This document shows positions 1,884 through 37,132 of a DNA stretch of 64,000 bases, piece after piece. The stretch comes from a virus, in the IMG/VR virus record IMGVR_UViG_3300046736_000122, positions 9,277 to 73,276 of that record. The stretch is one strand, 5' to 3'. Below the pieces are notes generated by a model. It was not told where the DNA came from. It ran no database searches and saw only the letters and a list, made by a program, of their open reading frames with translations. The stretch's first letter is position 1, and every line of letters begins with the position of its first letter. Both the position numbers and the translations under genes were made by a program.

Positions 1884-2359
1884 AGCGCTCCGGGCTAAAG
1901 GCCGACCCGGCGAAGACGGCCGCGTTCGTGAAGCGTGGCCGCGGCAAGCTCAAGCGCACATCCCTGCCGCGCACCGTCGCGCTGAACAACCCGCCGCCAC
2001 GGCGCTCTGAGCTACCGGGCGCGCGCGGCTGGACGCAGCGGGTGTTCACGCTCTACGGCCGCGTCTGCGTCGTCTGCGGCGATCGAGCGACCGAAGCTCA
2101 TCACGTGGTCCCTCGCCACGTCGTGCTGTCCGCGCGCCATCTCAGCCTCGCGGAGCGCGAGGCTCTCGCCTACGATGCACGCAATGGAGCGCCTGTCTGC
2201 GGGCTCGGCACGCGCCATTCTTGCCACGCCAACCACGAAGCCGCGTCGCACCGGATCCCGTTCGACCGGTTGCCCGCGGGCGCTGTGGAGTGGGCGATCG
2301 AGCATGGCTTTCGGTCGCGCGTGATGGATCGTCGCGTCTACCCTCGGCAGGCGTCGTGA
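1880..2359 (+). CDS. HNH endonuclease
   Basis: CVVCG..EAHHVVP..N..PVC..CHANHE; GTG 1880 overlaps previous stop. Confidence 0.8.
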   Translation: MKRSGLKADPAKTAAFVKRGRGKLKRTSLPRTVALNNPPPRRSELPGARGWTQRVFTLYGRVCVVCGDRATEAHHVVPRHVVLSARHLSLAEREALAYDARNGAPVCGLGTRHSCHANHEAASHRIPFDRLPAGAVEWAIEHGFRSRVMDRRVYPRQAS

Positions 2360-3027
2360 GCCGCGCCGACCTCGCGATCCTCGTGCGCGCGGGAAGCCAC
2401 GCGTACGGCACTGCCCGGCCCGACTCCGACGATGACTACCGCGGCGTGTACCTCGCGCCCACCGTCGACCTGTACCGGCTGCGACGGCCTGCGGAAAGCT
2501 TCGACCGTCGGGACCCCGACGTCACGCTGTACGAGCTCGGGAAGTTCGCGACGCTTGCCGCCGCGGCCAACCCGACGGTGCTGGAGATCTTGTGGGCCGA
2601 GCCGCTGCACATCTCGCCAGCCGGGGTGATCCTTCGACTTCACCGCGACGTGTTCCTGAGCCGCCGCGCGCTGAAGACGTACGGCGGCTACGCGCGCCAG
2701 CAGTTGAGCAAGGCGACCAAGGGCATCGGTGGCTCGCGTGGCTCGGGGCATTCCCGCCGTGAGAAGTTCTTGCTGCACACGATCCGGCTTGCGGAGGCCG
2801 GGCTGCATCTGTTGCGTACGGGCGAGGTTCAGGTGCGCGTCCCGGACCCGGTCGGGCTCTGGGAGCGTGCGAACCGCGGCTTGGATGCCGTTGTGGCCGA
2901 GTTCGCGGACCTTGACGATCGCCTCGCGGCGGCGTCGGCATCGAGCCCGCTGCCGGAGCACCCCGACCTTGAGGCGATCGACCGGCTGCTGATCCTGTTG
3001 CGCCGAGACATCGGCGCGCGGCCATGA
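2356..3027 (+). CDS. Pol-beta-family nucleotidyltransferase (RlaP/YcgL-like)
   Basis: GSHAYG..PDSDDDYRGVY, ANPTVLEIL, HTIRL motifs. Confidence 0.85.
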   Translation: MSRADLAILVRAGSHAYGTARPDSDDDYRGVYLAPTVDLYRLRRPAESFDRRDPDVTLYELGKFATLAAAANPTVLEILWAEPLHISPAGVILRLHRDVFLSRRALKTYGGYARQQLSKATKGIGGSRGSGHSRREKFLLHTIRLAEAGLHLLRTGEVQVRVPDPVGLWERANRGLDAVVAEFADLDDRLAAASASSPLPEHPDLEAIDRLLILLRRDIGARP

Positions 3028-3308
3028 AGCGCGTCGTGCTCCTCTGTACTCGCCCCGCGTGCGGCCACGGGCCCGGCCGTCACGAAGCGGGCGGCGCATG
3101 TCAGGACTGCGCGTGCACCGGCTTCACGCTCGAAGAGCAGGTGCGACTGACGCGTTGCTCGGAATGCAAGCGGCGGCCGTCACGCGGCTACGTGCCGCAT
3201 GACCTTCGGCCGGGAGGCTGGGGCAACCATCGGGAGGGCTGCTCTCGCCGCGGGATGGCACCCGACGCACTTGAGCGCGAGTTGACATCGGGGCCGCGGC
3301 GATGCTGA
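3024..3308 (+). CDS. Cys/His-rich hypothetical protein
   Basis: CGH..HEAGGACQDCACTGF metal-binding motif; coupled start. Confidence 0.6.
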   Translation: MKRVVLLCTRPACGHGPGRHEAGGACQDCACTGFTLEEQVRLTRCSECKRRPSRGYVPHDLRPGGWGNHREGCSRRGMAPDALERELTSGPRRC

Positions 3309-3637
3309 GCCGTCCGCAGCCGCGCTGCCCTTCGTGCCGCTGGTTCCTCTCATTCGAGGCTATCGATCACTCATGGGTAGCCCGCTGCCAGAACAGGCCG
3401 GAAGCCTGCCCGGTCGATGTAGTGCCGCCGACGATCAACACGGCGCTCATCGAGTTCGTGCGCTCGACTGGCGACACGACGAGCGTTGCCGCGGCCGAGC
3501 ACTTCGGCTGGAGCGTCCCGAACGCGGTCAACCACCTGACGAAGCTGACAGCGCTGCGGATTCTTGACCGCCGTCGCGTCAACCCGGTGCGCGGCGGCAA
3601 GCGGTTCGTGTGGACGATCGCGGGGCCACGGCGATGA
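3302..3637 (+). CDS. Zn-finger + winged-HTH protein
   Basis: CPSC..C..C then AAEHFGWSVPNAVNHLTKL. Confidence 0.65.
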   Translation: MLSRPQPRCPSCRWFLSFEAIDHSWVARCQNRPEACPVDVVPPTINTALIEFVRSTGDTTSVAAAEHFGWSVPNAVNHLTKLTALRILDRRRVNPVRGGKRFVWTIAGPRR

Positions 3638-4687: not shown

Positions 4688-4908
4688 TCGTGCTGCAGAT
4701 CGACGGTGGCGCCGATGCCGAGGTTGTGCTGACTCAAGTCAAGTTCGCGGCCAAACGGTTCCCCGGCCGCCACCGGCTGAAGCTCGTCGTGGCGATGGCG
4801 AACGGTGAGGAGCGCCGCGTCACCTTCGGATGGGACTGGCGGTATGACGCTTCGCCGGCTTGCCTTGCTGCGCTGGCCGAGTTTGGCCGCGCGGGAGTCG
4901 AGGACTGA
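4684..4908 (+). CDS. Small protein resembling the C-terminal domain of DnaE (Pol III alpha)
   Basis: VKFAAKRFPGRHRLKL..RRVTFGWDWRYDASPACLAALAEFG pattern, recognised from memory. Confidence 0.5.
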   Translation: MIVLQIDGGADAEVVLTQVKFAAKRFPGRHRLKLVVAMANGEERRVTFGWDWRYDASPACLAALAEFGRAGVED

Positions 4909-5252
4909 TGACCGCGCTCGACGACCTCGTCGCGGCCATCCGCGCACACCGCTTCGCCTACGTCGACGAGGACGAACTGCAGCAGGGCCTCGCCGCCGTC
5001 CTCGCACCGTTCGGTGTCGCGCGCGAGGTCCGGCTCGACTCCCGTTGCCGCATCGACCTGCTCGCCGGCCGCGTCGGTATCGAGGTGAAGGTCGGCGGCA
5101 GCGCGGCAGCCCTGCTCCGCCAGGTCGACCGCTACGCCGGGCTCGACACGCTCGACGCCATCGTGGTCGTCACGAGCCGCGTGCGTCACCTTCAGCCGGT
5201 CGACGAGGCCAACGGCAAGCCCGTGCGTTGGATCACCGTGGGGGCGCTGTGA
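4908..5252 (+). CDS. PD-(D/E)XK nuclease-like protein
   Basis: RIDLL..GIEVK..QVDRY motif; TGATG overlap. Confidence 0.75.
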   Translation: MTALDDLVAAIRAHRFAYVDEDELQQGLAAVLAPFGVAREVRLDSRCRIDLLAGRVGIEVKVGGSAAALLRQVDRYAGLDTLDAIVVVTSRVRHLQPVDEANGKPVRWITVGAL

Positions 5253-7045
5253 GGACGTACGGCGAGATCCGCTACCGCGCGGCATCTGGCGGCCCAGACG
5301 GTCAGCGCGCGGCGTGGCAGATTATCGCGAGCCCCGATGTCCTCATGCGTCTCAAGCGGCTGTTCCCGCGCGCCGAAAAACGCCGCTCGGGATGGATCAC
5401 GCTGGAGCACACGCTCGAGGTCGCTCGTGATCTCGAATGGGTGCTGCAGCGCTGGCCGATGAAGGTCGCCGACGAGGACCGTGCACGGCTCGTGACCTCG
5501 ACCGCGGAGTACGTCGAGCGCCAAGACCTCGTCGAGTCGCTGCTGCGCGGCGACCGGCCGCACCTGCCCGGTGTGCTGACGCCCGCGCGCGAGCCCCGCG
5601 AGTACCAACTCATCGCGGCCGACCTGACGCTCGCGACCGGCCGCCTACTGCTCTGCGACGAGCTCGGGCTTGGCAAGACGATGAGCGGCCTGCTCGCGTT
5701 GCGTGACCCTGACCTGTTGCCGGCGCTCGTCGTCTGCCCGACGCATCTGCCGCAGCACTGGATGCGCGAGCTTGCGAAGACACTGCCGACGTTGCGCGCG
5801 CACATCATCCGGACCGGCAAGCCGTACGACCCCGCGAAGCGCCGCGAGATGAAGGGCCACGATCCCGACGTGCTCATCATCAACTACCACAAGCTGCGCG
5901 GCTGGGTGGACCATCTCGCCGGCCTCGTGAAAACGGTGATCTTCGACGAGGCGCAGGAGCTGCGCCGCGCCGATAGCGACAAGTACAAGGCGGCGGCCCG
6001 TGTCGCCGATCTCGCGCACGTCCGGATGGGGTTGACAGCCACGCCGATCTACAACTACGCGTCCGAGATTCACAACGTGCTCGCCGTCATCGCTCCCGAC
6101 GCGCTCGGGTCACGCGAGGAGTTCGCGCGCGAATGGGGCGGCTCGACGTACTGGACGGACAAGCTCACCGTGAAGGATCCGAAGGCGCTCGGCGCGCACC
6201 TACGCTCCGAAGGCGTGTTCCTGCGCCGCACCCGCGTTGAGGTTGGCCGCGAGCTCCCGGAGATCGTTCGTGTGCCGCACAACGTGGACGCCGACGAGGA
6301 TGAACTCGACCGGTTGCTCGCCGCCGGTGGCGCTGCGGCGCTCGCGGAAACGATCCTCCACTCGCAGGACCGCAAGGCGGTGTTCACGGCGTCGGGCGAG
6401 ATCGACATGCAGATGCGCCGCGCGACCGGTGTAGCGAAAGCACCCTACGTCGCGGCGTTCGTAGACCTCCTGTTGGAGAGCGAGCAGAAGGTCGTGCTGT
6501 TCGGCTGGCATCGCGACGTCTACACGATCTGGGGGACACGGCTCGCCGCGCACAACCCGGTCATGTTCACGGGCTCGGAGTCGTCGGCGCAGAAGGAACT
6601 CAACCGGGCACGATTCATCGGCGGCGAGGATCTCGAGCGCGCAGCCGCGGCTCACCAGCGTGGCTTCAAGGGCCGCTGGCGCGAGTTCGAGGATGCGACC
6701 GCCGAGAGCCGCGTCCTGATGATGAGCTTGCGCGCGGGCAGCGGCCTCGACGGGTTGCAGCAAGTCTGCAACGTCGGCGTGTTCGGCGAGCTTGACTGGT
6801 CACCGGGCGTTCACGATCAGTGCGAGGGCCGCTACCACCGCGACGGCCAGAGCGAGCCGAGCGTGTCGTACTTCCTCGTCAGCGACGTCGGCAGCGATCC
6901 CGTCGTCGCGGACGTGCTGAACCTGAAAGAGCAGGGCAGCCATCCAATCGTGGATCCGAACCGTGCGATGTTCGTCGCGGCGGATGTGAGCGACCGGATG
7001 CGCAAGCTCGCGGAGTCCGTGCTGAAGCGGCGGCGCGCGGCATGA
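5249..7045 (+). CDS. SNF2-family helicase
   Basis: DELGLGKT, VIFDEAQ, LTATP, GLDGLQ, QCEGRYHRDGQ; start GTG 5249. Confidence 0.9.
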   Translation: MRTYGEIRYRAASGGPDGQRAAWQIIASPDVLMRLKRLFPRAEKRRSGWITLEHTLEVARDLEWVLQRWPMKVADEDRARLVTSTAEYVERQDLVESLLRGDRPHLPGVLTPAREPREYQLIAADLTLATGRLLLCDELGLGKTMSGLLALRDPDLLPALVVCPTHLPQHWMRELAKTLPTLRAHIIRTGKPYDPAKRREMKGHDPDVLIINYHKLRGWVDHLAGLVKTVIFDEAQELRRADSDKYKAAARVADLAHVRMGLTATPIYNYASEIHNVLAVIAPDALGSREEFAREWGGSTYWTDKLTVKDPKALGAHLRSEGVFLRRTRVEVGRELPEIVRVPHNVDADEDELDRLLAAGGAAALAETILHSQDRKAVFTASGEIDMQMRRATGVAKAPYVAAFVDLLLESEQKVVLFGWHRDVYTIWGTRLAAHNPVMFTGSESSAQKELNRARFIGGEDLERAAAAHQRGFKGRWREFEDATAESRVLMMSLRAGSGLDGLQQVCNVGVFGELDWSPGVHDQCEGRYHRDGQSEPSVSYFLVSDVGSDPVVADVLNLKEQGSHPIVDPNRAMFVAADVSDRMRKLAESVLKRRRAA

Positions 7046-28977: not shown

Positions 28978-29334
28978 TCAGCCTGGCGTTACCGCGTAGC
29001 GCTTGCGGACACCCTCGCTTGTCCGCCCAAGCGCCACCGCGATCATGTGCCACGACCGCCCGGCCTCACGCGCCTGTGCCACCAGCACCGGCTCGCGCGC
29101 GTCCTGCCGATCACGGTCTGCGGCGAGCGCGGCGAGCTCGTCAAGGGGATCGGTGGCGGCCTGCATCGTGTCGCGGATGTGCCGGCACGTCCCGGTCGCC
29201 TCGCACGTGCAAGTCGCGTTCTCGCCGGCGATGGTCACGAGGTGCATGTGCCCGGGCCGCGAGCGGGATTGTGCGACGTAGACTTGTGCGCCGTGCAGGC
29301 GTTGGATTGGTGCGTTGATGTCGAGCAGCGTCAT
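28978..29334 (-). CDS. SWIM Zn finger + HTH protein
   Basis: ATCTCEATGTCRHI; AREAGRSWHMIAVALGRTSEGVRKRY. Confidence 0.75.
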   Translation of the reverse strand: MTLLDINAPIQRLHGAQVYVAQSRSRPGHMHLVTIAGENATCTCEATGTCRHIRDTMQAATDPLDELAALAADRDRQDAREPVLVAQAREAGRSWHMIAVALGRTSEGVRKRYAVTPG

Positions 29335-29528
29335 CGCTCGCTCTCTCTGCGCGCCTGGCTGTCGGCGACGAAATCTTCCCAGCCGGCTGGCGGCGCGATC
29401 TCGCCCTTCAGCACTCGGACACCGTCGCTGGTGCTGCCGCATGCCTTGATGAACGTGCCGTAGCGCTCGATCACATCGTCCAGAGCCAGCTGGATGTAGT
29501 AGGTGATGCCCTTCCCAGTAGATTCCAT
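29331..29528 (-). CDS. Hypothetical protein, leaderless
   Basis: ATG 6 nt after TAGAAT; ATGA-coupled to the HTH gene. Confidence 0.7.
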   Translation of the reverse strand: MESTGKGITYYIQLALDDVIERYGTFIKACGSTSDGVRVLKGEIAPPAGWEDFVADSQARRESER

Positions 29529-32429: not shown

Positions 32430-32681
32430 ATGGCCACTGGCTACGAGAGGCATGCGGAGAAGCACGGCCGGTGGCGAGGAAACGACGTGCTGTTCGACCC
32501 GCACGCGTCGACCTACGGGCGCTGGCGGCCCAAGCCCGGCATCTCACCGAGCTACGCCGCGCACAAAGCCACGCAGGAGCGCGGCCGTCGATGCCGCGCC
32601 GCGCGGGCGGCTGCTGACCTCGCCGCTACCTCTGCGTTGGCCTGGCTCGAACGTCGTGGTGACACCGTGGCGCTGCCGTGA
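32430..32681 (+). CDS. Hypothetical protein
   Basis: Leaderless start; GTGA-coupled. Confidence 0.55.
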   Translation: MATGYERHAEKHGRWRGNDVLFDPHASTYGRWRPKPGISPSYAAHKATQERGRRCRAARAAADLAATSALAWLERRGDTVALP

Positions 32682-32872
32682 CGCGGCTGCGGGAGGTCGG
32701 CAAGGGGCTGTTCTACGGCCTCGCTCCGTGGTGGCTGTACGAGCGCGAGTGCCACTACGCCGGCTGGTCGTATCGCGAACATCTCGCTGAGAATCTGCGC
32801 CTCGCGTGGCGATGGGCGACGTGGCGCGAGACGAAGGGCGACCGCGAGTTCGCCGCCGAGGCATCCTCGTGA
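32678..32872 (+). CDS. Hypothetical Trp-rich protein
   Basis: Coupled at both ends. Confidence 0.55.
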   Translation: MTRLREVGKGLFYGLAPWWLYERECHYAGWSYREHLAENLRLAWRWATWRETKGDREFAAEASS

Positions 32873-35800
32873 CCACCCGCCGGCTCGACCTCGCCGCCGC
32901 GGCAGCCAACGTCAAGGCCGCGGCCAGCGGCCCCCTCGACCAGAAGTCAAGCGTCTTCCCCGAACTCACCGGCTTCAGCGGACTGCCAGGGTGGTCGTAC
33001 TTCATCCCGCAGGAACGCGAACTCTCCGAGGCATGGCGTGGCCGCAAGCGTCTCGAAACGGTCGACGAGATGCTCAACCACTATCAGGTGGCAGCGTGCT
33101 GGCAGGCCGTGCGGTTGCCGGTCCACCGGTACGTCATTGAGCTTGCGCCGCGCCGCGCGAACATCGTCGACGCTGACCTCATCGCCTCGGACCTCGATGT
33201 CCCGCTGCAAGGCCACGAGGACACATCAGACCGCGATCGTGACGAGGAGGACTTCAGCCAGCGCCGCCACCTCGACCGCGCACTGGACGCCGTCACGATC
33301 GGCCACGCGGTGTTCGAGCAGGTCGGCTACATCGACCAGGCCGGCACGTGGCGGCTACGCGATCTCGCGCCGGTGCCGCAGTGGACGCTCGACGACGCGT
33401 CGTGGAAGGTAGACAAGCACGGCAAGTTGCTGGAGGTCGTGCAGTATGGCGCGACACCGGAGGTGCGCATCCCGGCCGATCATCTCGCCGTGTTCACGTG
33501 GCAGGGGGCACCGGGCGACTTCCGCGGACGGTCGATCCTCAGGCCGTTGACGGCGCCGTGGATGCTGTCGGACCGCGGGATGCGCGTGACGGGGATGGCG
33601 ATGGAACGCACCGGCATGGGGATCCCGGTCGGCAAGGTCGGGATGGGCGCCGGGGTGCAGGCCAAGCAGGACATGGAACGGCTGCTGCGCAACCTCGCGG
33701 CCGGCGAGAACACGAACCTCGTGCTCGAAACGGACGAGGACATTCAGAAATCGATGATGCTGATGGGTGTCACGGGCTCAACCCCGGATCTCGTCGGGAT
33801 CCTGCGCCACTGGGATGAAGCGATCGCCCGCGCGATGCTCGCGTCGTTGCTGCAACTCGGGTCGACGGAGACGGGTAGCCGCGCGCTCGGCGAGACGTTC
33901 GACGACCTGCTGTCGATGTTTCACGACACGGTCGTCACGTGGTACTGCGACGCGATGAACCGGCTCGTGCGGCTGTGGATGATTCGCAACCGTGGGCCGG
34001 ATGCGCCGCGACCGATGCTTGTGTGGAAGCGCCGCGACGACGAGGGCGTGCCAGCACCCGCTCCCGCCGACACGCCACCCGTTCCCGCCGGCCCCACGCC
34101 CGTGGCAGCCAAGCGCCGCCCGATGACCGCCGCGGCCCGCCACGAACGCAAGGCGAAGGCGACACGCACCGCGTTCGCTCAGGCCGCCGGCCGGGACCTT
34201 CGCCGCGACCCGACCCCGGCCGAGCTCGCGGCGGGCACCGACTTCTCACGGCTCGAGCGCGAGCACGTCGCGGCGAGAGAAGACCTCGCGGCGGTGTTGC
34301 TGCGCGAGCGCGATGACCTCGCCGCGCGCGCGGTCGAGATCATCGCCGCGATGCCGACCGTCGACCCGCTCACGTTGGGTGCTGTTCTCGGCCCGCAGCT
34401 CGCCGGTCACGCGGCCGGGATGGACACTGGTCCGCTCGTCACGCTGCTCGAAGCATCGGCCGCGCAAGGCCAGGCGCAGGTGGTCGCGGAGGCGGCCACG
34501 CAGGGCGTCACGATCACGCCCGACGTCGACTACGCGGCGCGCGCGGCCGTCGAGGCGAACGAGCTTCAGCGCCGCATGGCGGTGCAGGTGACGGAGGCGT
34601 GTGCGGCGGCGGCGAAGACGATCGTTCCTGCCGCGCCGGCGGTGCGGGCTCGCCGCGGCTTCATGTCGAAGCTTCGCCCGCCCGCGCGGCTGGCAACGAT
34701 CGAGGCGGGCACGATCGAGGACTTTCTGTCGTCGCTGTCCCCCGCCGCGGCCGAACAGGCTGCGGCGGGAGCGACATCGAGGGCGAACGGTGGCGGACGG
34801 TTCGGCGCGATCGCGTCCGCGCCGACGCAAGCTGTCTACGCAAGCGAACTGCTTGACGAGAACACGTGCGTCGCTCCCGACGCACTCGTGATGACGGCTG
34901 AAGGCGAGAAGCCGGCTGCCGAGATCACGCTACGGGATCGCCTCCTCACGCACGCAGGGCGGTACATCGCACCATCGGCCATCGTGCCGTCAGATGCGAA
35001 GGGTGAGCTGGTCCGGGTGCTGGTAGGGGGTCGCACGCTTCGGGCGACGCCCGACCACCGCGTGCTTGTCGTCCGGGGGAATAGCCTCGCCTGGCGCGAG
35101 GCGGGCGAACTGCTCGTGGGCGATCTCATGGTCAGCGAGGCGACTGCGCAGACGGGCAGCGAACCCATCAGCCATGATGTCCGACTCGGGGATGCGCCAC
35201 ACGGTGAGCCCCCGCGACTCAAGGTCGGCGGTTTTGCGCCGGTCAGCATCGGGCCGCAGCGAGTGCCAGTAGGTGCCGTCCGCTTCGATGACGACCGCGC
35301 CGAGGAGGAAGTCCACGACCCACGGCCCGACCTGGGCCTGGGCGGTGTGGCGCAGGCGCGCCACTTCAAGGATCTCGCGGACGACGCGCTCGATACTCGT
35401 CTCGGCATCGCTGGCGACGTAGCATCGTCGCGAGCAGTACCGCTTGCGCGACTCGGCGGACGGCACTATGCGGATGGTCTTCCCGCAGTGCTGACAGTCG
35501 ATAAGGACCGGCGGCCTACGGCAGGCTTCGCAGCAGTGACGGCGCGGCGTCTTCCGCCCGTGGCGGAAGGGGGCCCCGCATCGCTCGCAGGTTGCGTCGC
35601 GTCCACGGTGGGCGTTCGAGCAGGCGCGGGTGCAGTAGTTGTAGCGAGGCGCGTTGGACGCGGGGATGTCGAAGTTCGTTCCGCATCCGACGCATGTCTT
35701 CGTCACGCGGTGGCGTGGGCGGCCCGGGTAACTCGCGTGGTCCTTAGAGCGACAGGCGTGCGAGCAGTACTTGGCCCTACGTCGTTGTCTGCCAGTGATC

Positions 35801-36204
35801 TCGGCGCCGCATCGCTTACAGATCGGCGTGGGCCGATGAGCGTTCCGGCTTGTCCACCGTGCGACCGCGGCACAAGATCTACAGCGCTGACCGGTGACGA
35901 CGGGCTTGCCGCAGTCCATACACGTCTTGTCCATAAGAAGATGGTACTAATGCGCGTGGACGCGACGACGGTCACGCGATACGTGGGTCGCGTCTTCGAC
36001 TTCACGATCCCCGGCGATCACACGTTCTTCGCGGAAGGTGTCCTTGTGCACAACTGCGGCCCGTGCGCGGATGTCGACGGCCGCGAGTACGAGTCGATCG
36101 AGGACGCGATGCTGGACTATCCGAGCCTCGGCGGGTTCTTCGACTGCGAGGGCGGCGAGCGTTGTCGCGGGACGGCGGTTGCCGTGTTCGAGGGCGAGGT
36201 CTAG
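32869..36204 (+). CDS. Portal protein (Mu gp29/DUF935-like) fused to MuF-like head morphogenesis domain, intein-containing
   Basis: GRSILRP, ERTGMGIPVG, TGSRALG; MuF motif SELLDENT|CGPC..DG..CEGGERCRG restored on splicing; follows TerL. Confidence 0.85.
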   Translation: MTTRRLDLAAAAANVKAAASGPLDQKSSVFPELTGFSGLPGWSYFIPQERELSEAWRGRKRLETVDEMLNHYQVAACWQAVRLPVHRYVIELAPRRANIVDADLIASDLDVPLQGHEDTSDRDRDEEDFSQRRHLDRALDAVTIGHAVFEQVGYIDQAGTWRLRDLAPVPQWTLDDASWKVDKHGKLLEVVQYGATPEVRIPADHLAVFTWQGAPGDFRGRSILRPLTAPWMLSDRGMRVTGMAMERTGMGIPVGKVGMGAGVQAKQDMERLLRNLAAGENTNLVLETDEDIQKSMMLMGVTGSTPDLVGILRHWDEAIARAMLASLLQLGSTETGSRALGETFDDLLSMFHDTVVTWYCDAMNRLVRLWMIRNRGPDAPRPMLVWKRRDDEGVPAPAPADTPPVPAGPTPVAAKRRPMTAAARHERKAKATRTAFAQAAGRDLRRDPTPAELAAGTDFSRLEREHVAAREDLAAVLLRERDDLAARAVEIIAAMPTVDPLTLGAVLGPQLAGHAAGMDTGPLVTLLEASAAQGQAQVVAEAATQGVTITPDVDYAARAAVEANELQRRMAVQVTEACAAAAKTIVPAAPAVRARRGFMSKLRPPARLATIEAGTIEDFLSSLSPAAAEQAAAGATSRANGGGRFGAIASAPTQAVYASELLDENTCVAPDALVMTAEGEKPAAEITLRDRLLTHAGRYIAPSAIVPSDAKGELVRVLVGGRTLRATPDHRVLVVRGNSLAWREAGELLVGDLMVSEATAQTGSEPISHDVRLGDAPHGEPPRLKVGGFAPVSIGPQRVPVGAVRFDDDRAEEEVHDPRPDLGLGGVAQARHFKDLADDALDTRLGIAGDVASSRAVPLARLGGRHYADGLPAVLTVDKDRRPTAGFAAVTARRLPPVAEGGPASLAGCVASTVGVRAGAGAVVVARRVGRGDVEVRSASDACLRHAVAWAARVTRVVLRATGVRAVLGPTSLSASDLGAASLTDRRGPMSVPACPPCDRGTRSTALTGDDGLAAVHTRLVHKKMVLMRVDATTVTRYVGRVFDFTIPGDHTFFAEGVLVHNCGPCADVDGREYESIEDAMLDYPSLGGFFDCEGGERCRGTAVAVFEGEV
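34867..36054 (+). mobile_element. Intein (396 aa)
   Basis: Block A CVAPDALV, block B TPDHRV, block F VFDFTIPGDHTFFA, block G LVHN followed by Cys+1. Confidence 0.92.
34990..35934 (-). CDS. Zn-finger repeat + DUF559/Vsr-like endonuclease nested antisense inside the intein
   Basis: Five CxxC..(Y/H)CxxxC-type units then ETSIE..VDFLL..VIEADGTYWH..DRRKT..RGLTVWRIPE; TACCAT -10 six nt before ATG. Confidence 0.88.
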   Translation of the reverse strand: MDKTCMDCGKPVVTGQRCRSCAAVARWTSRNAHRPTPICKRCGAEITGRQRRRAKYCSHACRSKDHASYPGRPRHRVTKTCVGCGTNFDIPASNAPRYNYCTRACSNAHRGRDATCERCGAPFRHGRKTPRRHCCEACRRPPVLIDCQHCGKTIRIVPSAESRKRYCSRRCYVASDAETSIERVVREILEVARLRHTAQAQVGPWVVDFLLGAVVIEADGTYWHSLRPDADRRKTADLESRGLTVWRIPESDIMADGFAARLRSRLADHEIAHEQFARLAPGEAIPPDDKHAVVGRRPKRATPYQHPDQLTLRI

Positions 36205-36211
36205 TCCAGGT

Positions 36212-36565
36212 CTAGACCGGGCCGCCGCCGTACCGTTCGTGCGCGGCTTGCTTGCTGATTCGAAGGGCCGCGCCGACCTGCGCCCATGACGCGCCTTGCG
36301 CACGGGCTTCGGCGACGAGTCGCGCCGCGCGAGCTTCTACGGCCTCGCGCTCGCCGGGGATCGCCATGAGTTCGGCGAGCGGGGAGGGCGCCGGGTCTGA
36401 GGCCGCCGTCACGATCGTCGGCCGCTCTCTCAACTTCTCGAATGTCTGTGAGGCAACGACCATCGGCGTGGGCACCGTTTCGGCGTTGTCCACCAGGCAA
36501 ACCGATGGCGAGTCGAAGACCCGGCCGCAACCCGGACAGACGTGCAAGATCACCGGCTCAGGCAT
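36212..36565 (-). CDS. Zn-ribbon + HTH protein
   Basis: CPGCG; EARAQGASWAQVGAALRISKQAAHERY; AAAGGGG RBS. Confidence 0.8.
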   Translation of the reverse strand: MPEPVILHVCPGCGRVFDSPSVCLVDNAETVPTPMVVASQTFEKLRERPTIVTAASDPAPSPLAELMAIPGEREAVEARAARLVAEARAQGASWAQVGAALRISKQAAHERYGGGPV

Positions 36566-36581
36566 GACGAGCGACCCCCCT

Positions 36582-36791
36582 TTACCACAGGCCGGGCGCC
36601 CGGTAGGTCGCCCGTACGCATGCTTGACACTGGCGCAGTCGATCGGAAGGCCGTGGCTGATCGTGCGGCGGTAGCTCGACGTTGCCCGGCGTTAGTTCGG
36701 AGGTGTCGGTCTGTGGTGCTTGCCAGCCCTGCCATGGCTCGCCGCATGCCGTGTTGTTGCCGTCAGCTATGTGTGCGACGTAATCGCTCAC
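36582..36791 (-). CDS. Hypothetical protein
   Basis: GTGA-coupled; HIAD..TACG..CQAC. Confidence 0.6.
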   Translation of the reverse strand: MSDYVAHIADGNNTACGEPWQGWQAPQTDTSELTPGNVELPPHDQPRPSDRLRQCQACVRATYRAPGLW

Positions 36792-37132
36792 GCTGCGTGC
36801 GCTACGCCGTGGTTCGCGCCGCCGCACGAGCAGTCGCAGGCGGGGCCGGTGGCGGTCGTGCAGCGCGCGTCGCACTTGTGGTCCGGGACGAGGCGACCCT
36901 TGACGGACGCCAGACGGTAGACGCCGTGCTCCGGGCAGCGTGCGGAGACTGCAACCCCGTTGAGGATGAACGGGAGGGCGGCGTCGTACGTGGCGCCGGC
37001 CGCGGTCAGGAGAGCGTTGTCGCCGTCGCGGCGGTAGGAGGAGTCAAGATCCTGCACGTCGGCGCCGAGGACGTAGGTCGCGTGCTTGCAGCCCTTCGTC
37101 TTGCACTTGCCGAGGTAAGCGGTGGAGTTCAT
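36788..37132 (-). CDS. Cys-rich Zn-binding protein, leaderless
   Basis: KCDARCTTATGPACDCSCGGANHG; ATG 6 nt after TAGTCT. Confidence 0.75.
   Translation of the reverse strand: MNSTAYLGKCKTKGCKHATYVLGADVQDLDSSYRRDGDNALLTAAGATYDAALPFILNGVAVSARCPEHGVYRLASVKGRLVPDHKCDARCTTATGPACDCSCGGANHGVAHAA

What the first reader, a model, noticed from the sequence alone, without database searches (positions are those of the whole stretch)
34867..36054. Intein carrying its endonuclease as a separate antisense gene
Seen: a complete Hint intein (C1 at 34867, TPDH, HN|C at 36054) interrupts the MuF LDxxT|CxxC motif. Where a LAGLIDADG domain normally sits, the plus frame reads like ~265 aa of shadow sequence. The minus strand carries a full ORF (34990-35934) of Zn-finger repeats plus a DUF559/Vsr-like nuclease, with TACCAT six nt before its ATG (the leaderless geometry used elsewhere in this phage) embedded in intein codons KKMVL. 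The two frames are codon-aligned, so the intein stays open only if the nuclease avoids TTA/CTA/TCA, and the last ~50 nuclease codons overlap intein block B. Known: inteins usually encode their homing endonuclease in frame; Vsr-like homing endonucleases occur free-standing between split-intein halves. Inference: a two-strand selfish element whose nuclease expression is uncoupled from the late virion gene, so homing could occur early in infection.
Basis: partly seen in the sequence, partly recalled or inferred. Interest (0 to 1): 0.92.

Follow-up and report, generated by a model that had tools for sequence, protein, structure and literature searches.

The report
Intein with antisense homing endonuclease gene
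A self-splicing protein insert (intein) in a phage head gene carries its DNA-cutting homing enzyme as a separate gene on the opposite strand; the layout is real and under selection, but the same kind was described in a 2025 preprint.

Summary
Window 34867-36054 (+) is a complete class-1 intein in a portal/MuF-like fusion gene. Window 34990-35934 (-) is a real, conserved 314-aa gene: a Zn-ribbon array plus a Vsr-like (EDxHD, DUF559) nuclease. The two frames are codon-aligned.

Selection switches strand. The nuclease frame is constrained over its core. The intein frame is constrained only at the two splicing ends. The 257 intein residues between them are predicted disordered.

The same layout occurs in 15 other distinct loci (GC 0.48-0.73). 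None of 4120 nuclease codons there is TTA, CTA or TCA, against 2.3% in relatives with no intein around them. A TANNNT hexamer lies exactly 6 nt before the nuclease start in 7 of 8 close relatives.

The nearest relative of the host protein (84% identity) lacks the intein.

The architecture is not new. Gosselin, Arsenault and Gogarten (bioRxiv 2025) report antisense VSR-like endonucleases in full actinophage inteins, and antisense LAGLIDADG cases date from 1998. This is a new member of a known kind.

Early, uncoupled expression remains untested; no RNA run was listed. Added here: spread beyond deposited actinophages, codon avoidance, the embedded promoter-like signal, and free-standing relatives lying tail-to-tail with intein-less MuF genes.

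The parts
32806..36204 (+). Host gene: a portal (Portal_Mu) fused to a MuF-like C-terminal domain, interrupted by the intein. The longest ORF starts at GTG 32806. The database's own protein P0055 has 1111 aa, and the intein-less relative P0056 starts opposite residue 22, so the likely start is 32869.
34855..34866 (+). N-extein side of the insertion site, GACGAGAACACG (D-E-N-T).
   Evidence: The intein-less relative P0056 reads ...LDEAT|CPPC....
34867..36054 (+). Class-1 intein of 396 aa, with C1, block B T61-P-D-H64 and terminal H395-N396. The +1 residue is Cys.
34867..35154 (+). N-terminal splicing (HINT) part, intein residues 1-96. Beta-rich, pLDDT 86-96.
   Evidence: intein-frame pN/pS 0.48-0.61
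35047..35058 (+). Intein block B, TPDH.
   Evidence: T61 and H64 are invariant in 15 of 15 inteins.
35155..35925 (+). Intein 'linker', residues 97-353: the mirror-frame reading of the nuclease gene. It has no Pfam domain and is predicted disordered. It is kept open only because the opposite strand has no TTA, CTA or TCA.
35926..36054 (+). C-terminal splicing part, residues 354-396, ending VLVHN.
   Evidence: intein-frame pN/pS 0.40
36055..36066 (+). C-extein side of the insertion site, TGCGGCCCGTGC (C-G-P-C).
34990..35934 (-). Homing endonuclease gene, 314 aa plus stop, codon-aligned with the intein frame.
35422..35922 (-). Zn-ribbon array, nuclease aa 5-171: one short CxxC..CxxC unit followed by four CxxC-x14-16-CxxxC repeats. 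Presumed DNA-binding module.
   Evidence: Invariant Cys columns; pLDDT 79-94; PHROG 'HNH endonuclease' families share the repeat.
35119..35406 (-). Vsr-like / EDxHD nuclease domain, aa 177-272, with invariant E182, D208, E217, H224 and D231.
   Evidence: DUF559; 3R3P at E 9e-16 and TM 0.82
34993..35118 (-). Nuclease C-terminal tail, aa 273-314, running antisense through the intein N-terminal splicing domain. Residues 291-314 are predicted disordered. Selection here follows the intein frame.
35941..35946 (-). -10-like hexamer TACCAT, 6 nt before the nuclease ATG. It is formed by intein codons ATG-GTA (Met-Val), where GTA is a rare Val codon.

Best explanation
This is a composite homing element written on two strands.

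On the plus strand, the portal/MuF-like structural gene is translated through a 396-aa class-1 intein. The HINT fold is built from residues 1-96 and 354-396. The 257 residues between them are a disordered, unselected read-through. The intein then splices itself out and restores the ...LDENT|CGPC... motif (inferred from intact catalytic residues).

On the minus strand, inside the slot where an in-frame endonuclease normally sits, lies an independent gene. It encodes a Zn-ribbon array fused to an EDxHD (Vsr-like, DUF559) nuclease. It probably has its own leaderless or near-leaderless transcript, started from a TANNNT -10 element embedded in intein codons (inferred).

The nuclease is expected to cut intein-less MuF alleles of co-infecting phages or prophages near the insertion site. 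Repair would then copy intein and nuclease together (inferred).

The arrangement persists because the codon-aligned antisense frame needs only three codons (TTA, CTA, TCA) to be avoided in the nuclease gene for the intein frame to stay open.

The orientation probably descends from free-standing relatives that sit tail-to-tail with the 3' end of intein-less MuF genes.
For: Shown:
(1) Intein and nuclease domains are both detected.
(2) GC by codon position flips in the overlap. In the plus frame, pos1 is 0.81 and pos3 is 0.64, against 0.73 and 0.86 in the portal part.
(3) In 8 sequences (28 pairs), the nuclease core (256 codons) has pN/pS 0.54 and 55% aa identity in the nuclease frame, against 1.16 and 38% in the intein frame. 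The intein-only ends give 0.40-0.48 in the intein frame against 1.12-1.28 in the other.
(4) AF2 models the nuclease at mean pLDDT 87. The intein is confident only at residues 1-96 and 354-396.
(5) The best fold match is I-Bth0305I (3R3P), TM 0.82. Its catalytic D196 and H213 (PMC3239194, passages) align with the invariant D208 and H224.
(6) The same layout appears in 16 loci (15 distinct, since L081 equals L003) with intact C1, TxxH and HN|C. Intein N and C parts always lie in one open frame; no antisense case is broken.
(7) TTA/CTA/TCA counts are 0 of 4120 nuclease codons in 15 antisense loci and 0 of 314 in the window. Loci with no intein around the nuclease have 207 of 8955. Those with nuclease GC of at least 0.60 have 33 of 2173, and 1 of 9 has none.
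(8) TANNNT lies exactly at -12 in 7 of 8 close relatives, and the eighth has GACAAT. The background is 19 per 22357 positions.
(9) PF14890 is listed for 1 of 41 host-protein homologues. The nearest (84% identity, 715 aa) is intein-less at the same motif.
(10) Free-standing relatives L082, L016 and L019 abut intein-less MuF genes in convergent orientation.
Against: There are no expression data; no RNA run was listed.

The generic scan found 0 sigma-70 promoters and 0 terminators in 34500-36400.

In L001 the aligned start position is ATC and no ATG, GTG or TTG precedes the first CxxC. In L004 it is ATT. Translation starts are therefore not uniform.

For this window alone, an open intein frame is only mildly improbable, about 0.045.

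Cleavage, target site and splicing are all untested.

Pfam PF04233 (Phage_Mu_F) does not hit this protein or its intein-less relatives.

The nuclease tree is a quick, weakly supported one: 20 of 47 inner branches are unresolved and the careful search did not finish.

Synonymous sites are near saturation (pS about 0.6), so the pN/pS values are rough.
Confidence: 0.8

Rival explanations
1. The nuclease gene is a relic. It is no longer expressed or active, and the element is now a vertically inherited intein with a long junk linker.
For: No expression or activity data exist. The 2025 preprint notes that some VSR-like cases look vertically inherited (section 15). L001 lacks a canonical start codon at the aligned position.
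Against: The nuclease core is under purifying selection. All catalytic and Zn-binding residues are invariant. A -10-like element is conserved. The nearest host-gene relative lacks the intein.
Confidence: 0.1
2. The nuclease and the intein are not one unit. The nuclease is an autonomous free-standing homing gene that targets the MuF 3' region and merely lodges in the intein as a harmless harbour. The intein need not move with it.
For: Free-standing relatives sit beside intein-less MuF genes (L082, L016, L019). Free and intein-embedded nucleases interleave on the quick tree. The same intein family holds this nuclease family in frame, out of frame and in split form. Gordonia MuF inteins carry an antisense LAGLIDADG gene instead.
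Against: The nuclease lies wholly inside the intein, so any gene conversion that copies it into an empty MuF allele must also bring the splicing ends or destroy the gene. All 15 distinct antisense loci keep both parts intact.
Confidence: 0.08
3. The minus-strand ORF is a chance mirror ORF of a high-GC genome, and the plus-frame middle is a degenerate in-frame endonuclease.
For: Long codon-aligned antisense ORFs are common in high-GC DNA. The window is 68% GC.
Against: DUF559 scores above its cut-off. The ORF has 54 homologues, the best at E 1e-126. The AF2 model is confident and Vsr-like. Composition and substitution patterns favour the minus frame. The plus-frame middle has no domain and pLDDT around 28.
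Confidence: 0.01
4. It is a fractured gene with a split intein (Dassa et al. 2009 type): two polypeptides joined by trans-splicing.
For: The nuclease family is the one found between split-intein halves (PMC2677866, passages). Relatives L021 and L039/L040 are indeed split.
Against: The plus frame has no stop from 32806 to 36204, and none in any of the 15 distinct antisense loci.
Confidence: 0.01

Closest known systems
Antisense VSR-like endonuclease inteins of actinobacteriophages (Gosselin, Arsenault, Gogarten, bioRxiv 10.1101/2025.01.02.630785; I read the abstract, sections 6 and 15, and passages)
   Same: A contiguous intein whose in-frame middle folds into nothing. A separate antisense ORF with a long N-terminal non-Vsr part followed by a Vsr-like core; they report a 1CW0 match over residues 144-267 and an HHpred hit to 3R3P. 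Phage structural and replication genes serve as hosts, and minor capsid proteins are among the hosts of non-canonical inteins.
   Different: No deposited phage holds a close relative of this nuclease. The best tblastn identity is 29%, in Mycobacterium phage hits such as Fishburne, where the nuclease ORF is free-standing. The minor-capsid cases the text names carry an antisense LAGLIDADG gene, which I verified in Nordenberg. Which hosts carry their VSR-like cases is given in a figure and supplements that I could not see. The main text has no occurrence of 'promoter', 'leaderless' or 'codon usage'.
I-Bth0305I and the EDxHD homing endonuclease family (Taylor et al. 2011, PMC3239194; passages)
   Same: The nuclease domain is homologous (hmmsearch E 9e-16, Foldseek TM 0.82). 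The catalytic Asp and His are conserved. Both have a bipartite layout with an N-terminal DNA-binding part and a C-terminal nuclease.
   Different: I-Bth0305I is encoded in a group I intron and binds DNA through NUMOD/HTH motifs. Here the N-terminal part is an array of Zn ribbons, and the gene lies antisense inside an intein.
Fractured genes: split inteins with a free-standing Vsr-like endonuclease between the halves (Dassa et al. 2009, PMC2677866; abstract and passages)
   Same: The same nuclease family at the endonuclease slot of an intein, mainly in phage. That model foresees endonuclease genes invading inteins.
   Different: There the host gene is broken into two ORFs. Here the intein frame is uninterrupted because the nuclease sits in the codon-aligned antisense frame.
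Antisense LAGLIDADG endonucleases in inteins (Synechocystis DnaX and Chloroflexus SpoVR-like; Gorbalenya 1998 and Gogarten 2002, as cited by the preprint, papers not seen). Also the Gordonia Vividuovirus MuF inteins.
   Same: An endonuclease on the strand opposite a contiguous intein. The Gordonia cases use the same MuF insertion motif.
   Different: A different nuclease family.

Membership tests
Class-1 intein (HINT) | Cys or Ser at position 1, and Cys, Ser or Thr at +1 | tested here: met
   C1 (34867-34869) and C+1 (36055-36057). C1 is invariant in 15 of 15 inteins.
Class-1 intein (HINT) | Block B TxxH and a C-terminal His-Asn | tested here: met
   T61-P-D-H64 and H395-N396. These columns are invariant in 15 of 15.
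Class-1 intein (HINT) | Profile match above the curated threshold | tested here: met
   PF14890 at 44.8 bits against 35.8, and TIGR01443 at 24.5 against 15.6. TIGR01445 at 22.4 is below its 24.5 cut-off.
Class-1 intein (HINT) | Protein splicing activity | not testable with these tools
   Inferred only, from conserved residues and from the gene being the phage's portal/MuF-like head gene.
EDxHD / Vsr-like homing endonucleases (DUF559) | Vsr-like nuclease fold | tested here: met
   Foldseek gives 3R3P at E 3e-5 and TMt 0.82; 1VSR and 1CW0 are also listed. PF04480 scores 28.2 bits against 20.6.
EDxHD / Vsr-like homing endonucleases (DUF559) | Conserved catalytic acidic and His residues (I-Bth0305I D196 and H213) | tested here: met
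   E182, D208, E217, H224 and D231 are invariant in 29 sequences. D208 and H224 align with the two mutated positions of 3R3P.
EDxHD / Vsr-like homing endonucleases (DUF559) | NUMOD/HTH N-terminal DNA-binding region | tested here: not met
   The N-terminal 171 aa are Zn ribbons. No HTH or NUMOD family was reported.
EDxHD / Vsr-like homing endonucleases (DUF559) | Site-specific double-strand cleavage of the empty allele | not testable with these tools
Antisense-endonuclease inteins (non-canonical architecture) | An uninterrupted intein ORF with a complete endonuclease ORF on the opposite strand between the splicing blocks | tested here: met
Fractured gene / split intein | A stop codon separating the N- and C-intein halves into two ORFs | tested here: not met
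   There is no stop in the plus frame from 32806 to 36204.
Phage Mu F / SPP1 gp7 head morphogenesis domain (PF04233) | Profile match of the extein | tested here: not met
   PF04233 is not reported for the window protein or for the intein-less P0056 and P0057, even at E up to 1. The support is indirect. tblastn matches the C-extein to Arthrobacter phage proteins annotated as MuF-like. phrog_595 hits at E 1e-6. PF04233 hits beside the homologous intein in L010 (E 2.2e-9, N-terminal side) and L012 (28.8 bits against a 29.6 cut-off, C-terminal side).

The most novel reading that the evidence does not exclude
Antisense-endonuclease inteins may be an old, widely spread and actively maintained architecture rather than a rare actinophage oddity. 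They would be held together by three-codon avoidance and by a promoter written into rare intein codons.

The MuF-site intein and Zn-ribbon EDxHD nuclease family would preserve every stage of the endonuclease-invades-intein pathway in living examples. These stages are: free-standing and tail-to-tail with MuF, antisense inside the intein, same-strand out of frame, in frame, and split.

The separate promoter would let the nuclease act at a different time from the late head gene.
Probability: 0.4. Interest if true: 0.65.

Novelty: new member of a known kind. Interest (0 to 1): 0.45.

Why it matters
The case shows in a clean way how two proteins can share DNA on opposite strands with almost no mutual cost. 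Only three codons must be avoided, and fewer than 30 codons encode folded parts of both proteins.

It offers a natural series for testing how homing endonucleases enter inteins and how genes become fractured.

It also has a practical side for annotation. Gene callers and curators will usually report only one of the two genes, or the wrong one. Mycobacterium phage Fishburne gp58 looks like a mirror ORF of an unannotated endonuclease.

If the internal promoter is real, it would be an example of a regulatory signal built from rare codons inside a protein-coding frame.

Tried and rejected
RNA evidence: the look-up of sequencing runs listed no RNA holder.

DNA search of deposited phages with the 1.5-kb region found no match.

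The search for related loci with the portal part as a single protein found no relative in viral contigs. I replaced it with a protein search.

The generic promoter/terminator scan found nothing in 34500-36400.

Literature searches turned up nothing on antisense endonucleases in inteins. These used intein with 'opposite strand', DUF559, antisense/overlapping, and MuF. One search (intein, Vsr, homing endonuclease) found the preprint. A search for Gorbalenya's 1998 paper did not find it in the library, so it is cited only through the preprint.

The careful maximum-likelihood tree did not finish in 288 s. Only the quick tree is used.

The idea that the conserved antisense peptide RHNKIPPT(K/R)D in L026, L032 and L033 marks another intein was dropped. 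It is the mirror of the nuclease's SD-like GGTGG plus ATG (my reading).

Supplements of the preprint are closed. I could not check whether any of its VSR-like cases sits in a minor capsid gene.
Full report
**What is in the window**

The window lies in a complete 73,276-nt virus record with direct terminal repeats, at 68% GC. The plus ORF 32806..36204 carries Portal_Mu at aa 84-422 and an intein splicing domain. It also matches the TIGR intein N- and C-terminal models.

The intein runs from Cys (34867) to His-Asn (36054) and is followed by Cys. Block B, TPDH, is at 35047-35058.

The minus ORF 34990..35934 encodes 314 aa. It matches DUF559 above the Pfam cut-off. It has 54 homologues at E up to 0.001, the best at 66% identity. 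An alignment of 29 of them shows invariant Cys quartets forming four to five Zn ribbons. It also shows invariant E182, D208, E217, H224 and D231. The two frames share codon boundaries.

**Which strand is coding where**

In the overlap the GC pattern by codon position flips to that of a minus-strand gene.

I compared the window with seven close relatives (28 pairs).

| Region | Codons | Nuclease frame pN/pS (aa identity) | Intein frame pN/pS (aa identity) |
|---|---|---|---|
| Nuclease core | 256 | 0.54 (55%) | 1.16 (38%) |
| Nuclease tail | 58 | 1.02 | 0.61 |
| Intein-only ends | 40 and 41 | 1.12-1.28 | 0.40-0.48 |

Selection therefore switches strand twice along the intein. Synonymous sites are near saturation, so these ratios are rough.

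**Structure**

AF2 models the nuclease with mean pLDDT 87. Residues 1-290 are confident and 291-314 are not. The intein is confident only at residues 1-96 and 354-396. Residues 97-353 average about 28.

Foldseek's best match for the nuclease is the I-Bth0305I catalytic domain, 3R3P (TM 0.82). Vsr also appears in the list. A profile of the family hits 3R3P at E 9e-16.

The two positions mutated in that crystal, D196 and H213 (PMC3239194, passages), align with D208 and H224.

Block B lies opposite nuclease residues 293-296, in the nuclease's disordered tail. Folded parts of both proteins overlap only at nuclease aa 258-285 against intein aa 72-99.

The invariant Pro134 of the intein 'linker' lies opposite the nuclease's invariant Trp223, by my mapping of the two frames.

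**Relatives**

Scans with the nuclease alignment gave 80 viral and 13 genomic loci.

HMMs of the intein ends, searched in six frames of all 93 loci, hit 29. In 16 loci the N and C ends lie on the strand opposite the nuclease, flanking it, in one open frame. These are 15 distinct loci, because L081 equals L003. No antisense case had the ends in separate frames.

In each, the mirror frame is the codon-aligned one: 15, and L070 by my arithmetic on the coordinates.

Fourteen of these loci plus the window have C1, TxxH and VHN|C, with intein lengths of 387-445 aa. Thirteen of the 14 sit at the same D-x-x-x|C-x-x-C extein motif; L034 differs. L070 shows the same layout.

Locus GC ranges from 0.48 to 0.73. 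Two loci come from an Anaerolineales MAG and a contig binned as Methanothrix.

Pfam finds Hint or intein domains in 8 of 9 host ORFs tested. It also finds Phage_Mu_F beside the intein in L010 and, just below its cut-off, in L012. It finds nothing in L034.

**Is the open intein frame selected?**

The intein frame stays open only if the nuclease gene lacks TTA, CTA and TCA. The counts follow.

| Set of loci | TTA+CTA+TCA codons | Loci with none |
|---|---|---|
| 15 antisense loci | 0 of 4120 | 15 of 15 |
| 36 loci with no intein around the nuclease | 207 of 8955 | 6 of 36 |
| 9 of those with nuclease GC of at least 0.60 | 33 of 2173 | 1 of 9 |
| 5 sense or split cases | 40 of 1041 | 0 of 5 |

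The antisense set includes nuclease genes with GC 0.39-0.43. The window itself has 0 of 314.

For the window alone the chance figure is about 0.045. Across the lineages, chance is excluded.

**Expression signal**

TANNNT lies exactly 12 nt before the aligned start codon in 7 of 8 close relatives, and the eighth has GACAAT. The background on that strand is 19 per 22357 positions.

Reading those hexamers in the intein frame, the TA comes from a Val GTA codon in 6 of 8. GTA is rare in such GC-rich genes. The intein peptide there is otherwise variable.

In the Anaerolineales locus L084 I read a TATAAT and an AGGAG upstream of the ATG.

In the window the same TANNNT-N6/7-start geometry precedes a handful of other small ORFs.

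Against this, the generic scan found no sigma-70 promoter or terminator. L001 and L004 have ATC and ATT at the aligned start. No RNA run was listed.

**Mobility**

Among 41 homologues of the host protein, only the window's own carries PF14890. The nearest, P0056 (84% identity, 715 aa), reads ...LDEAT|CPPC... uninterrupted. Of the other three I inspected, P0057 and P0082 are also empty at this site. P0061 has a different, LAGLIDADG-type intein in the portal domain.

**Origin**

On a quick, weakly resolved tree, 14 of 15 antisense nucleases fall in one half. Free-standing relatives interleave with them.

The free relative nearest the window's clade is L082, in a Micromonospora genome. It lies 10 nt from the stop of an intein-less portal-MuF gene, in convergent orientation. 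L016 and L019 overlap the 3' end of an intein-less MuF gene tail-to-tail by 92 nt.

The antisense orientation may therefore predate capture by the intein.

The same intein family also holds this nuclease family in other layouts:
- In frame: L046, L064, L076, L089, L091.
- Same strand, out of frame: L028.
- Split form: L021, L039/L040.

**Prior knowledge**

Gosselin, Arsenault and Gogarten (bioRxiv 10.1101/2025.01.02.630785, version of 2025-10-20) report 63 non-canonical inteins in PhagesDB. I read the abstract, sections 6 and 15, and passages.

These include antisense VSR-like endonucleases in full inteins, with unstructured in-frame middles and a 3R3P match. Hosts of non-canonical inteins include minor capsid proteins. 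The paper cites antisense LAGLIDADG cases from 1998 and 2002.

I verified an antisense LAGLIDADG ORF in the MuF intein of Gordonia phage Nordenberg.

Deposited phages hold no close relative of the present nuclease. The best identity is 29%, in Mycobacterium phage hits; in the one I inspected (Fishburne) the nuclease ORF is free-standing.

The preprint's main text has no occurrence of 'promoter', 'leaderless' or 'codon usage'.

**Verdict**

The kind is already described, so this is a new member. The claim of early, uncoupled expression is open.

Noticed in passing
L082:3893-5239 (+) and L082:5249-7300 (-); L016:3929-4816 (+) and 4725-5612 (-); L019:3932-4810 (+) and 4719-5663 (-): Free-standing relatives of the nuclease lie convergent with the 3' end of intein-less MuF or portal-MuF genes. 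The gap is 10 nt in L082. In L016 and L019 the two genes overlap tail-to-tail by 92 nt. The MuF C-x-x-C motif lies close to the nuclease's stop.
   Followed up: partly
L046:3272-6901, L076:2522-4873, L089:2363-8377, L091:794-3052, L064:3029-4843: Contiguous inteins of the same family carry a DUF559/Vsr-like nuclease in frame. Pfam confirmed this for L046: DUF559 at aa 403-469 lies inside the intein at aa 194-530. The 2025 preprint says VSR-like endonucleases were otherwise reported only with split inteins.
   Followed up: partly
L028:2599-5175 (intein ORF) and L028:3920-4750 (nuclease ORF): [quoted passage not shown]
   Followed up: partly
L021:2975-4738 and 4705-5790; L039 and L040: 1163-4549 and 4488-4787: Fractured MuF genes. 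The N-extein, N-intein and nuclease sit in one ORF. A short overlap follows, then a separate ORF with the C-intein and C-extein.
   Followed up: partly
L097 (Mycobacterium phage Fishburne KC691256): 1959-2747 (-) against 2007-2804 (+): The annotated gp58 'hypothetical protein' is the mirror frame of an unannotated ORF with Zn ribbons and a Vsr-like motif (LQFDGDYWH). It is probably a strand mis-call. The same region recurs in about a dozen related phage genomes in the hit list.
   Followed up: partly
L017/L018, L026, L032, L033, L045 (nuclease matches as): A clade of nuclease relatives with no detectable intein nearby has only 0-2 TTA/CTA/TCA codons in 210-387 codons, at GC 0.36-0.52. In L017, L026, L032 and L033 a mirror frame of about the nuclease's own length is open (L045 was not examined for this). 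This is unexplained.
   Followed up: no
P0061 (relative of the window's host protein): This 1090-aa relative has a different intein with LAGLIDADG-like motifs inserted in the portal domain. It has none at the MuF-like site.
   Followed up: no
window 36788-37132 (-), 36212-36565 (-), 29331-29528 (-), 32430-32681 (+): These are small ORFs with high GC3. Three are preceded by TANNNT plus 6 nt plus ATG. Two lie on the minus strand just downstream of the head gene. One has a weak HTH_23 hit (E 0.002); the others have no Pfam family.
   Followed up: partly
L095 (Gordonia phage Nordenberg MH976514): 2615-3325 (-): An antisense 236-aa ORF with a LAGLIDADG-like motif lies inside the intein of the MuF-like minor capsid gene. 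This matches the preprint's minor-capsid cases.
   Followed up: yes
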